Positions 12,001 through 15,000 of a DNA stretch of 64,000 bases are shown piece after piece. The stretch is from Magallana gigas (taxonomy: Eukaryota), in NCBI RefSeq assembly GCF_963853765.1, contig NC_088861.1, forward strand, positions 26,350,001 through 26,414,000. The letters are read 5' to 3'. A program made the position numbers. How positions within the stretch are numbered: position 1 is the first letter of the stretch; each line of letters begins with the position of its first letter.

Positions 12001-15000
12001 CGTTCCCTCCCCTAAAAAAAAAATAGAACAAATCTTACTTAAAGAAACTATGATCCTTACCAGTCCTGTCTGTGTGACAAAGTCTCCCTCTATTATTGAT
12101 AATGAATAGAAACTGTTAATATAGGAGGGGTAAGGTTTAAGGATAAGGTTTTTCACAATATATTAAATACATGTACTTTTAAGAAGGGTTTTCCACTCTT
12201 CTTTCATCTATTTACATTTTTAATAAATTGAAAACTGTTTCATTCACTGAAAGTAGACTTTCCTAGTAATTTGTGTATTGTTTCATAATTTTGCACAATT
12301 TTAACTTTTACAATAATAAGATTGTTGGCAAATAATGGATGCAAAGAATTTAAAATCACCCTTTTTACAGTATCTGTTAAATAATTAAATCTTACCATGT
12401 TGCAATTGTGTGAAACTCATCTATCACAATCATGCCCACGTTGAAATTTTGTAACAGCTGTCGGAATTTTGAATCTCCAACAAGAGATTCAGGCGAAGCA
12501 AATAAAATGTCGAATTCTCCTCTGTTTATCAACTCATCCATCTCATGACTGCTACCTTTTGTAAAAGAACGGTTTTATCATCTTGTGTGGTCTGATCGTA
12601 TTTTTTGTCTTAACAGTTAATGAGATGCTGGTATTTTTTTTCTTAAAGTGATAGAAAATATGATAAAATTTTTAGACTAAACATATATAGCATATAGACT
12701 TGGTTAGACTTCAATAATGACGTCAATTACCACTATAAATCGCCACTGTGAACGTCAGAGAAATTTCGGAATAAATAGATGAGCATGCTGGTGCATGGTG
12801 TAATGTTTTATGACAAGTTAGGAAATTGAATCTTTAAATTACCTTTGTATGCAACACGTAGTTCTGAAATACTGTGAAGTCGCTCGACCTGGTCTTTCAT
12901 CAGGGCAAGTAAAGGACAACACACGATTATACGCTCAGTCTGTGGGCCTAGACGTCCTAGTTCCCGAACAACTGGGAGGTAAATTTGATACGGTAAAGAT
13001 TTACCGAATCCCGTTGGCAACACGGCAATACAGTCCTTTTTCGCTAGCATAGATTGCAGCATGTGGTATTGTTCAGTTTTCAAACTCTCCACTGAAAATT
13101 TTACACAAACGTTCTTTATCACTTCGTCCATGTTTACCTCCGCCATTTTCTAATACTTTCCAAGTTGGATTTCAGAGACAAAATTTGATTGGTTAGAAAA
13201 GTTCATAACCTGTAATTAGCATCCGATTAAATATTCATCGATAAAGGTCACTCGCATGTGAACCCTTATGCAGCTTCTTCAGACCTTCCACGCGACCATC
13301 AAAATAAAGGAGCTAGTGGAAGGTTTGATTTTAATCAGACTGCATTCGCCTACGACTACCAGAAAATAGTGGTGTTTGATTATACTAGAGAAAGTAAAGA
13401 GCACATTAACTATGACCTACTGGAGGATCTCAAGAATGGGTCAATATGGTCACCCAAGTACCAGTCAGCGGTCAAATCCTGGAAGTTTAATGTCAAGGTG
13501 ATATGCTTTGCCAACTTCCCCCCTAAGTTCGAAGCCCTCAGTCACGACAGATGGTATGTTCTGGAGCTCAAGGACGGGAAACTCAGGAGGACCAGAATTC
13601 CCCAACCCCAAGCTCCACCCACCCCGTATGTTGTGGAATCATCGGCGTGCATAATAGTCTGAACTAACATGGCCGCCGAAACACGAGGTATTAATACGCC
13701 GAGCCCGATAGATATTTACATACCGAGCCCGAACTATTTATAGCATACCGTGCCCGATATATTTACCTGGTGACCGGTTACCGGTGCCCCGCTTTAAAAG
13801 CCGAGCGCATAACCAAAGCTAGGATAATGCGCTCGGCTGTAAGGGAGGTCACCATGGGGCACTTCCGGTCACGTGATTTAATGGCGATAGGGATTAGACG
13901 TGTTTGAATTGGGCTCCGAGATTTTCACCATGTAAGTTATTATTAGTGGTTTTTTTCGGCCTCCCCTGGTTTGACTCTGAGGGTGTTCTTCATATTTGCG
14001 CAGAGTCCAGGTAGGAGAAGGTGTGTTAATTAATTTGTCTGAAGGATTTCAAGATCTGGTATGTTTGGTTTTAGTCTATATAGTCTTATATTACAGTTGT
14101 TGAGTTATTAAGATTTGGATTTAATTATAGCTTATTTATTAAAAATTAACAAATTGCACGGTTAATTCATTTACAACAGCAGTGCACCTATCTGGCCTTA
14201 AATTCCATAATTTTGGTTAGTCAGTATTTCAATATATTAATTTGTAAATAAATGTGTAGATAACTCATTTTTTAATATTCAAAATAGGTTCAGCAAAGAT
14301 CACTTTGAATTGAATTCATATGCAAATATATAATGAAATATACAAGTGTTGTATAGTGTATTAGTATATATATACATGTATCACAGTTTACATTCATATA
14401 ATAAAGCACCATCTTCATATAACAAAGCACCATCTAACCATCTAAGCAGATGCCCGACGAAAATCCTTCTTCATCCAGAATGGGTGGTGGAGATCTAAAT
14501 GGTAAAAAGTCGAAACTTAAATATACTGGTAGTTCAAGTAATACTTCAACGCCCAAAAAGCAAAAACTGGACAGGGGTAAAAAAGAAAACCTGGAACATT
14601 CTGCCAAATCTGAGTTAAAAGAAAGTCCAGGAAATCTACTTCAATGCCCAAAAGGCAAACACTTGTCAAGGGTCCGGACGGAAAAGAAAAAGTGGAACAG
14701 CCACAGAAGTTGCCTACACCTGATATAAACGAGTCATCTTTCCTACCCACAAATTTCAAATTCCCTGTATCAAGTTTAGGGAGTCAGAAAAGGTCTTTAC
14801 AGGGATATCGGTATAAGAAATGGAGATGGCTCTATTATGATGTGTCCTTAGATGCAGCATTTTGATTCTGTTTTACAAAAGCTTATGAGGGTGGTATGCT
14901 GTCCAGTAACAATAAGGAGATGATATTTTTGTCAAAAGGATTCTGTATTGGATAAAAGCCACAATCCGATTCGAAGAACATGCCAACAGCAAATATCTTA

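What the first reader, a model, noticed from the sequence alone, without database searches (positions are those of the whole stretch)
13359..13662. Stop-free CRESS-DNA (nanovirus/alphasatellite-like) Rep helicase fragment integrated in an animal genome
Seen: about 100 uninterrupted codons carrying SF3 helicase motifs in correct order and spacing (VVFD Walker B; NYDLLEDLKNG.I.SPKY; VICFAN motif C; LSHDRW Arg finger), in visibly more GC-rich DNA than the flanks. Known: this motif set and spacing is typical of Reps of nanoviruses, alphasatellites and related unclassified CRESS viruses, and differs from Helitron Rep-Pif1. Inference: either a recent endogenised ssDNA virus of a bivalve, or the 3' end of an undescribed rolling-circle mobile element that uses a CRESS-type HUH+SF3 Rep. 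The neighbouring hAT and Gypsy relics are full of lesions while this frame is clean, which suggests youth or constraint.
Basis: partly seen in the sequence, partly recalled or inferred. Interest (0 to 1): 0.85.

Follow-up and report, generated by a model that had tools for sequence, protein, structure and literature searches.

The report
Truncated CRESS-type Rep helicase relic
A 104-codon leftover of a replication-protein gene of the kind used by small circular single-stranded DNA viruses sits in this invertebrate chromosome; it looks like an inert relic, but the zinc-finger-bearing gene family it came from is unnamed in all but one database record.

Summary
Window 13333-13644 (+) encodes 104 codons in one frame, with no stop and no frameshift. 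They match the helicase domain of unnamed 470-685-aa proteins (95 of 104 residues identical to the best, tblastn E 7e-59). Those proteins are collinear with canonical CRESS-DNA virus Reps (HUH nuclease plus SF3 helicase) by profile-profile comparison and by predicted fold.

The piece is cut at both ends. It lacks the nuclease domain, Walker A, the C-terminal tail and any in-frame ATG, and no other piece of the gene lies in the 64 kb. It is best read as an inert, fairly young relic, not a constrained gene.

"Nanovirus/alphasatellite-like" is too specific: unclassified CRESS and crucivirus Reps match better. Stop-free Rep-derived sequences of the "CRESS-DNA group" in bivalve genomes were already reported in 2018, so this is a new member of a known kind.

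The more interesting point is the source lineage. Its Reps carry N-terminal TRAF-like zinc fingers and a conserved tail. They occur as intact and as decayed copies, one of them on a pearl-oyster chromosome, and lie on contigs of recurring length. Whether that lineage is a virus, a mobile element or a host gene stays open, because the contigs could not be read here.

The parts
13333..13644 (+). Rep-derived fragment of 104 codons, matching residues 515-618 of the 661-aa relative P0169. It covers the SF3 helicase domain from just before Walker B to past the Arg-finger region. The gene is broken by 2 truncations, one at each end. Inside the piece there are 0 stops and 0 frameshifts.
   Evidence: Single tblastn HSP, 91.3% identity, E 7e-59. 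A relaxed search (E<=50, 11-16 kb) found no collinear continuation. 95 of 104 residues are identical to P0169.
13231..13662 (+). Stop-free run of 143 codons plus its stop codon. The first 34 codons and the last 5 have no Rep homology. There is no in-frame ATG.
13645..14030 (.). GC-rich, CpG-rich stretch with no ORF over 45 aa, directly downstream of the Rep piece. Whether it came in with the Rep piece is undecided.
   Evidence: GC 0.479 and CpG o/e 1.14, against 0.471 and 0.46 in the Rep part. ORFs are at most 45 aa and give 0 Pfam families. No Rep homology. No Rfam match at E<=1 and no tRNA gene in this stretch.
13699..13766 (+). Tandem repeat, period 24, 2.9 copies, 73% matches. It is iteron-like in position only.
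13799..13838 (.). Hairpin with a perfect 12-bp G+C-rich stem and a 16-nt loop. The loop does not match the canonical CRESS origin nonanucleotide pattern.
   Evidence: DNA fold of -16.2 kcal/mol, z -5.08, 0 of 200 shuffles as stable. The pattern search found 18 matches in the window against 19.3 expected, none in 13600-14100.

Best explanation
The stretch is a dead, doubly truncated relic of a CRESS-type replication initiator (Rep) gene, integrated in the chromosome of an invertebrate, probably a bivalve. Its source is a lineage of intronless genes of 470-685 codons. Their products combine N-terminal zinc fingers, a divergent single-tyrosine HUH nuclease domain, an SF3 helicase domain and, in the closest members, a conserved C-terminal tail. 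By analogy with studied CRESS Reps, a full-length protein would nick single-stranded DNA at an origin and unwind DNA as a ring-shaped ATPase for rolling-circle copying (inferred).

The window keeps only the part from Walker B to the Arg-finger region. It has no start codon, no P-loop and no nuclease domain, so it cannot act as an enzyme (shown from the sequence). It most likely does nothing (inferred). The frame is clean because the piece is short and young, not because it is selected (inferred). How it arrived is not resolved. It could be filler DNA captured at a break, or the remainder of a longer copy overwritten on its upstream side.
For: - Single HSP at 13333-13644, with nothing else of the gene in 64 kb.
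- The closest relatives are 661- and 664-aa proteins at 91% and 89% identity.
- In a joint alignment of 26 clade and canonical members the invariant columns include one His, a Tyr..Lys pair, G..GK, and in the helicase part D, N and DRW.
- The clade profile against a profile of 30 canonical Reps gave hhalign probability 100, E 1.5e-60 and 262 columns. 28 of those 30 carry Pfam Viral_Rep.
- The AlphaFold model of clade member P0011 has pLDDT 79.3. It matches the vientovirus Rep 9pqq (E 1.3e-9), the PCV2 Rep nuclease domain (TM 0.70-0.71) and ATPase domain (TM 0.56), SV40 large T antigen and papillomavirus E1.
- Language-model look-alikes of the fragment itself are Cressdnaviricota clusters scoring 0.95-0.96.
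- There is no in-frame ATG in the 143-codon run.
- Of 69 columns invariant in 11 close relatives the window keeps 65. Of 22 columns invariant in 32 wider relatives it keeps 20.
- The piece meets the published criterion for integration, more than 3 kb of genomic flank (PMC6069186 section 6).
- A clade member is annotated on a 59-Mb Pinctada imbricata sequence.
Against: - No Pfam, PHROG or NCBIfam model recognises the fragment itself. Its identity rests on relatives.
- The clade-only profile finds no Rep among PDB sequences.
- I could not compare nucleotides with any relative, so youth versus constraint rests on residue counts and a rough expectation. With 5 window-specific residues and rates recalled from general knowledge, I estimate roughly a one-in-three chance of a clean frame under neutral decay. 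No tool computed this.
- Copy number in this genome, read support for the junctions and expression are all unknown.
- The GC-rich block with a strong hairpin and tandem repeats next to the piece may mean that more of the source element is present than the coding homology shows.
Confidence: 0.75

Rival explanations
1. The piece is the 3' end of a truncated copy of a discrete mobile element or episome that uses this zinc-finger Rep. The adjacent 13645-14030 block, with its tandem repeats and hairpin, would be that element's cis-acting end or origin. This overlaps with the best explanation and differs only in the nature of the source.
For: - GC is uniformly high over 13333-14030 and unmatched elsewhere in the window.
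- The hairpin has z -5.08 and lies 33 nt downstream of a 24-nt tandem repeat of 2.9 copies.
- N-terminal zinc fingers are drawn as a feature of HUH transposases in the Replitron paper (PMC10288648, Fig. 1 legend).
- Both intact and decayed or truncated family members occur in the protein collection.
- The contigs that carry relatives recur at about 7.2-7.6, 7.0-7.2, 6.6-6.9 and 1.44 kb.
Against: - No second copy of 13147-14440 exists in the window.
- CpG o/e differs sharply between the Rep part (0.46) and the block (1.14).
- The 43-residue C-terminal tail of the closest relatives is missing between the two.
- The canonical origin nonanucleotide pattern is absent from the block.
- No capsid-like or other ORF is present.
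- The relatives' DNA could not be read, so no shared boundary is shown.
Confidence: 0.25
2. The stretch is a constrained, exapted coding exon of a host gene.
For: The frame is stop-free over 143 codons. Most family-invariant residues are kept. A pyrimidine-rich tract ending in AG lies upstream, inside the open run (seen, not tested).
Against: There is no ATG, no Walker A and no nuclease domain. Two of 22 deeply invariant residues are changed. A partial ATPase fold without its P-loop has no obvious activity (inference). No exon prediction or expression data were available.
Confidence: 0.05
3. The stretch is an assembly chimera or contaminating viral DNA, not chromosomal.
For: Its composition differs from the flanks. 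Contaminating virus is a caveat the authors themselves raise for short contigs in invertebrate assemblies (PMC6069186 section 6).
Against: It is embedded in a 64-kb contiguous stretch. The only N run lies several kilobases away. The piece is an internal fragment, not a genome-sized unit. Decayed relatives exist elsewhere.
Confidence: 0.05
4. The stretch descends specifically from a nanovirus or alphasatellite Rep.
For: A banana bunchy top virus master Rep and one of its alphasatellites are among the fold matches, at E 2.5e-18 and 3.4e-16. Nanovirus Rep nuclease domains 6h8o and 2hwt match the profile of canonical relatives.
Against: Sixteen other viral entries rank higher, all unclassified CRESS, crucivirus or circovirus-labelled. 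The nearest sequence relatives are the bivalve-type zinc-finger clade. I fetched no nanovirus sequence, so no tree was made.
Confidence: 0.05

Closest known systems
Rep-derived endogenous sequences of the 'CRESS-DNA group' in bivalve genomes (Dennis et al. 2018, J Virol, PMC6069186: Modiolus philippinarum 4 sequences, Mytilus galloprovincialis 4)
   Same: These are Rep-only pieces with no cap. They are stop-free over the detected homology, lie in bivalve assemblies and group with divergent unclassified CRESS viruses (Table 1 and text of section 6).
   Different: I could not tell whether those loci belong to the same zinc-finger clade.
Reps of unclassified Cressdnaviricota and cruciviruses
   Same: The order of domains is the same: HUH nuclease, linker, SF3 helicase. 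They are the best fold matches (E 1.8e-25 to 1e-22). They show 40-55% identity over the helicase part. Pfam Viral_Rep is present in 28 of 30.
   Different: The source clade has extra N-terminal zinc fingers and a nuclease domain so divergent that no Pfam family matches P0169. Its closest members also carry a conserved C-terminal tail. Its proteins are 470-685 aa against about 300.
Porcine circovirus 2 Rep (PDB 7lar, 8xms, 5xor)
   Same: Both domains share its fold. It supplies the SF3 hallmark set of Walker A, Walker B, motif B, motif C and Arg finger (PMC8406172 passages).
   Different: The helicase domains do not align by sequence profile. Only the nuclease part of 7lar matches.
Helitron RepHel transposase
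   Same: It is an HUH nuclease fused to a helicase, often with zinc-finger-like N-terminal parts, in eukaryotic chromosomes.
   Different: Helitrons have two catalytic tyrosines and an SF1B helicase (PMC10288648 passages). Here there is one invariant Tyr column and an SF3-type fold.
Replitron transposase
   Same: It is a single-tyrosine Rep weakly linked to CRESS Reps, integrated and multicopy.
   Different: Replitrons have no helicase domain and are described from plants, algae and protists (PMC10288648 significance statement, abstract and passages). Here the helicase is the very part that is present.

Membership tests
CRESS-type Rep (HUH nuclease + SF3 helicase), window fragment itself | Significant similarity to proteins that carry the Rep nuclease domain (Pfam Viral_Rep) and the SF3 helicase domain | tested here: met
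   2794 hits at E<=1e-3. All 150 best hits match the clade helicase profile. Viral_Rep is found in 13 of 26 and in 28 of 30 aligned hits.
CRESS-type Rep, window fragment itself | HUH motif and catalytic Tyr of the nuclease domain | tested here: not met
   The homology starts at residue 515 of 661, so the nuclease domain is absent from the window.
CRESS-type Rep, window fragment itself | Walker A (P-loop) | tested here: not met
   The invariant G..GK columns lie at residues 489-493 of P0169, upstream of the matched part. None is visible in the upstream translation.
CRESS-type Rep, window fragment itself | Walker B, motif C and Arg finger in order | tested here: inconclusive
   The invariant D, N and DRW columns are kept in the window. 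The Pfam RNA_helicase match of clade member P0014 (residues 281-373, E 3.4e-8) overlaps the part aligned to the window. The motif names are assigned by order and invariance, not by a residue-level structural alignment.
CRESS-type Rep, source clade (zinc-finger Reps) | Collinear HUH nuclease + SF3 helicase | tested here: met
   hhalign probability 100, E 1.5e-60, 262 columns. Fold matches to both domains of CRESS Reps. But no Pfam family matches P0169 and the clade profile finds no Rep among PDB sequences.
CRESS-DNA virus genome | Stem-loop origin with the canonical nonanucleotide, plus a capsid gene | tested here: not met
   A hairpin is present, but the pattern has no match in 13600-14100. 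No ORF above 45 aa lies in 13645-14030.
Endogenous viral element (criterion of PMC6069186) | Viral homology flanked by more than 3 kb of genomic sequence | tested here: met
   About 13 kb upstream and 50 kb downstream, carrying retroelement and RecQ-family genes. Read-level support is not testable here.
Nanoviridae / alphasatellite Rep | Nearest relatives are nanovirus or alphasatellite Reps | tested here: not met
   They rank 17 and 33 in the viral fold search. No tree was made.
Helitron | Two-tyrosine Rep fused to an SF1B (Pif1-like) helicase | tested here: not met
   The fold and family are SF3-type. There is a single invariant Tyr column.
Replitron | Single-tyrosine Rep without a helicase domain | tested here: not met
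   A helicase domain is present. The definition is from PMC10288648.
Transposable element (any) | Several copies with shared ends in one genome | not testable with these tools
   Only this 64-kb window of the genome is available, and it holds one copy.

The most novel reading that the evidence does not exclude
The fragment is a stray piece of an undescribed bivalve lineage of discrete units of about 7 kb. Their Rep joins TRAF-like zinc fingers, a single-tyrosine HUH nuclease and an SF3 helicase. That would be a CRESS-derived rolling-circle mobile element or resident episome. If it is a transposon, it would be a third kind of eukaryotic HUH transposon beside Helitrons and Replitrons, and the first to keep the viral SF3 helicase. 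The hairpin and tandem repeats at 13699-13838 would be part of its cis-acting end.
Probability: 0.3. Interest if true: 0.75.

Novelty: new member of a known kind. Interest (0 to 1): 0.35.

Why it matters
On its own the fragment adds one more Rep-derived relic to a list that already includes bivalves. It matters as a pointer. Nearly all records of the lineage it came from are unnamed (the exception is one Pinctada imbricata hypothetical protein). That lineage keeps its catalytic columns across members only 41-62% identical to the alignment's reference member P0011. It has gained zinc fingers that viral Reps normally lack. Working out whether this lineage is a virus, a transposon or a host gene would bear on how ssDNA-virus replication genes settle in animal genomes.

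Tried and rejected
- Pfam, PHROGs and NCBIfam on the fragment gave no family, or only noise at E>0.2.
- The PDB sequence search with the fragment gave two chance-level hits, a Mutator transposase at E 0.019 and a CMP-sialic acid synthetase at E 0.037. I rejected both.
- The clade-only profile against PDB gave only a TRAF-type zinc finger, 2d9k at E 7.6e-4, and no Rep.
- I looked for the missing N- and C-terminal parts at E<=50 in 11-16 kb. Only uncollinear noise came back.
- Self-comparison of 13147-14440 against the window found no second copy.
- Rfam at E<=1 gave one chance-level match outside the feature, and ARAGORN found no tRNA gene.
- The canonical origin nonanucleotide pattern matches at chance level and is absent from the block.
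- A scan of prokaryotic genome contigs with the clade alignment found 62 pattern matches, 0 confirmed.
- tblastn against plasmids gave 0 records. Against phages it gave 1 record, 38% identity, annotated as replication-associated protein.
- The 'longer' protein search with the largest RecQ-family piece found nothing.
- Name look-ups for 30 relatives and their cluster members returned one name.
- Six literature searches found no description of a zinc-finger CRESS-type Rep family in molluscs.
- Pfam found no hAT or other family in the ORFs at 14450-14865.
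Full report
**1. What is in the sequence**

The quoted strings (the VVFD, NYDLLEDLKNG..SPKY, VICFAN and LSHDRW stretches) are all in the translation.

The run is the 8th longest of 8252 stop-to-stop runs in the six frames of the window. Shuffles of the same bases are stop-free in 9 of 20000 trials over 143 codons. The run holds no in-frame ATG. The ORF lister's "start" is a GTG.

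GC is 0.471 in the homologous part against 0.335 for the window. The GC-rich block continues to about 14030, and none of 1250 sliding windows of the same size reaches its GC.

**2. What it is homologous to**

Pfam, PHROGs and NCBIfam do not recognise the 134-aa ORF. A PDB sequence search gives only chance-level hits.

An exhaustive phmmer search of 1.84 billion representative proteins gives 2794 hits at E<=1e-3, 415 at E<=1e-10 and 3 at E<=1e-30, with a best E of 6.4e-58. The word-indexed search among longer proteins finds 11 hits. The best are 661 and 664 aa at 91% and 89% identity.

tblastn of seven relatives against the whole window gives one HSP each, always within 13333-13644. For the closest relatives it spans that whole range, which equals residues 515-618 of the 661-aa protein P0169. 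A relaxed search of 11-16 kb (E<=50) adds nothing collinear.

So the window holds 104 codons of a gene of about 2 kb. It is cut at both ends, with no stop and no frameshift inside. The first few codons of the HSP match poorly, so the upstream bound is uncertain by about three codons.

**3. The source family**

The closest relatives are unnamed proteins from assembled public reads and ENA records. One more distant member, P0014, is a hypothetical protein of the pearl oyster Pinctada imbricata on a 59-Mb sequence. UniRef labels it as containing a helicase superfamily 3 ssDNA/RNA virus domain.

An alignment of 26 clade members (A2) shows the following parts:
- One to several Cys/His zinc-finger modules at the N terminus. 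A profile of the clade matches the TRAF-type finger of 2d9k at E 7.6e-4.
- An acidic stretch and then a lysine-rich stretch.
- A domain of about 190 residues, then the helicase domain.
- In the closest members, a conserved C-terminal tail.

Fifty-three columns are invariant, although members are only 38-62% identical to the reference member (one near-identical cluster mate apart).

In a joint alignment with canonical hits (A1) the invariant columns include a His, a Tyr..Lys pair, G..GK, and D, N and DRW further on. By order these correspond to the HUH motif, the catalytic tyrosine motif, Walker A, Walker B, motif C and the Arg finger. That hallmark set is listed for PCV2 Rep in PMC8406172 (passages). 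The assignment rests on order and invariance. I have no residue-level structural alignment.

**4. Is the family really a CRESS-type Rep?**

Evidence for:
- 28 of 30 canonical hits carry Pfam Viral_Rep and 11 carry RNA_helicase.
- The clade profile aligns to the canonical profile with hhalign probability 100, E 1.5e-60, over 262 columns. The alignment runs from the nuclease domain to the end of the helicase.
- All 150 best phmmer hits match the clade's helicase profile. Only 20 match its nuclease-and-linker profile, so the helicase is the conserved half.
- An AlphaFold model of clade member P0011 (pLDDT 79.3, pTM 0.45) matches solved structures. These are the vientovirus Rep (9pqq, E 1.3e-9), PCV2 Rep nuclease domains (TM 0.70-0.71 on the target), the PCV2 ATPase domain (TM 0.56), plasmid pMV158 RepB, a geminivirus Rep, SV40 large T antigen and papillomavirus E1.
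- In the viral fold library, at least 500 entries match at E<=1e-3, the counting cap. The best are Reps of uncultured CRESS viruses and cruciviruses, at E 1.8e-25 to 1e-22.
- The protein-atlas look-alikes of the fragment and of P0169 are Cressdnaviricota clusters.

Evidence against:
- P0169 matches no Pfam family.
- The clade-only profile finds no Rep in PDB sequences.
- The helicase half of these proteins does not align by sequence to the PCV2 helicase.

On balance the family is a divergent CRESS-type Rep. It is not a cellular AAA+ protein, and it is not a Helitron RepHel.

**5. Nanovirus/alphasatellite?**

A banana bunchy top virus master Rep is rank 17 and one of its alphasatellites is rank 33 in the viral fold search. 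Nanovirus nuclease domains match the canonical profile. So the likeness is real, but no closer than to many unclassified CRESS Reps. I fetched no nanovirus sequence and built no tree.

**6. Young or constrained?**

The window copy is identical to P0169 at 95 of 104 residues. It keeps 65 of 69 columns that are invariant in 11 close relatives, and 20 of 22 columns invariant in 32 wider relatives. Five of its residues are seen in no close relative.

So it is close to a working source, but it has begun to change positions that the family never changes. With about five private residues, I estimate a roughly one-in-three chance of a still-clean frame under neutral decay. That figure uses rates recalled from general knowledge, not a tool result.

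Together with the missing start codon, P-loop and nuclease domain, this favours a young inert relic over a selected coding piece.

**7. Surroundings**

Upstream, on the minus strand, lie three open pieces at 12808-13146, 12392-12541 and 11078-12031. They carry the Pfam DEAD and Helicase_C domains, and the largest has its best PDB matches to WRN, RecQ and BLM. I searched the pieces one by one and did not join them.

Further upstream are a DUF6589 ORF (8496-9629) and a Gypsy-type retroelement with open frames of 280, 347 and 1156 aa covering gag-like, protease and RT-RNase H-integrase domains. That retroelement is not "full of lesions".

The downstream ORFs at 14450-14865 gave no Pfam family, so their hAT identity stays unconfirmed.

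A 23-nt inverted pair (21 of 23 bases complementary) has arms at 10064-10086 and 13320-13342. It is the best distant inverted pair in 9600-20000, and only 2 of 100 Markov surrogates hold one as good. It encloses the RecQ-family pieces, and its right arm ends within three codons of the Rep homology. I saw no target-site duplication. This may mean the upstream loss of Rep coincides with the end of another unit. It is unresolved.

**8. The downstream block, 13645-14030**

The block has GC 0.479 and CpG o/e 1.14, against 0.46 in the Rep part. It holds a 24-nt tandem repeat of 2.9 copies at 13699-13766. It also holds a hairpin with a perfect 12-bp stem at 13799-13838 (-16.2 kcal/mol, z -5.08, 0 of 200 shuffles).

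Direct repeats beside a stem-loop recall a rolling-circle origin. However, the canonical nonanucleotide pattern has no match there. The closest relatives' C-terminal tail is missing between Rep and the block. The block's CpG content differs from the Rep part, and no second copy exists in the window. The link to the Rep piece is therefore only a lead.

**9. Literature**

Dennis et al. 2018 (PMC6069186; Table 1 and section 6 read) screened 675 animal genomes. They list Rep-derived sequences of the "CRESS-DNA group" in the bivalves Modiolus philippinarum (4, confirmed as integrated) and Mytilus galloprovincialis (4), all with coding potential kept. Hence the kind is known.

Replitrons (PMC10288648; passages read) are eukaryotic HUH transposons weakly linked to CRESS Reps. 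They lack a helicase and are described from plants, algae and protists.

Kazlauskas et al. 2019 (PMC6668415; passages) found no link between Helitrons and CRESS Reps.

Six searches turned up no description of a zinc-finger CRESS-type Rep family in molluscs.

**10. What stayed unchecked**

- The prokaryotic genome scan found none.
- Copy number in this genome, read support, expression and nucleotide-level selection could not be tested.
- The contig lengths reported for relatives recur. Eleven of 15 listed for one cluster lie at 7219-7623 nt, 6 of 8 for another at 6950-7184, and 7 of 9 for a third at 6578-6876. Eleven of 15 lie at 1434-1441 nt for an N-truncated 278-aa form. This hints at discrete units but proves nothing.

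**11. Verdict**

This is a real, correctly spotted CRESS-type Rep helicase fragment. It is an inert, doubly truncated, probably young relic in chromosomal context, and a new member of a known kind. The open and more interesting question is the nature of its zinc-finger Rep source lineage.

Noticed in passing
window 10064-10086 and 13320-13342: A 23-nt inverted pair (21 of 23 complementary) encloses the RecQ-family helicase pieces. Its right arm ends at the upstream edge of the Rep homology. It is the best distant inverted pair in 9600-20000, and 2 of 100 surrogates hold one as good. No target-site duplication was seen.
   Followed up: partly
window 11078-13146 (-): A RecQ-family helicase lies in at least three open pieces. 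It has Pfam DEAD and Helicase_C, and its best PDB matches are WRN, RecQ and BLM. It sits head-to-head with the Rep piece, 186 bp away. The pieces were not joined, and a 'longer' protein search with the largest piece found nothing.
   Followed up: partly
window 68-5224 (+): A Gypsy-type retroelement has three long overlapping open frames of 280, 347 and 1156 aa. They cover gag-like/zinc knuckle, aspartyl protease and RT-RNase H-integrase domains. It looks largely open, not decayed.
   Followed up: partly
window 8496-9629 (+): A 377-aa ORF carries Pfam DUF6589 and a weak C2H2 finger, and starts just after the window's only N run. The N run was left alone.
   Followed up: no
window 10480-10658: A cluster of three near-perfect palindromes has arms of 25-28 nt. 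One stem shares a 9-base G+C-rich word with the hairpin at 13799-13838 (read). No longer similarity exists between the two regions.
   Followed up: no
window 13279-13328: A 13-bp inverted repeat forms a hairpin just upstream of the Rep homology (-10.8 kcal/mol, z -3.03, 1 of 200 shuffles as stable).
   Followed up: partly
window 19112-19489: Two direct repeat families of 94 and 93 nt (98% and 91% identity), interleaved at a spacing of about 190 nt, form a short tandem duplication.
   Followed up: no
relatives P0171-P0190 and their cluster members (no locus held): The contigs that carry members of the zinc-finger Rep clade recur at nearly the same length in separate records: about 7.2-7.6 kb, 7.0-7.2 kb, 6.6-6.9 kb and 1.44 kb. 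The same clusters hold full-length and much shorter members.
   Followed up: no
relatives P0003, P0004, P0006, P0007 (no locus held): Short unnamed proteins of 95-165 aa match the same helicase part at 66-84% identity. They are far shorter than full-length members, so other partial copies exist elsewhere.
   Followed up: no
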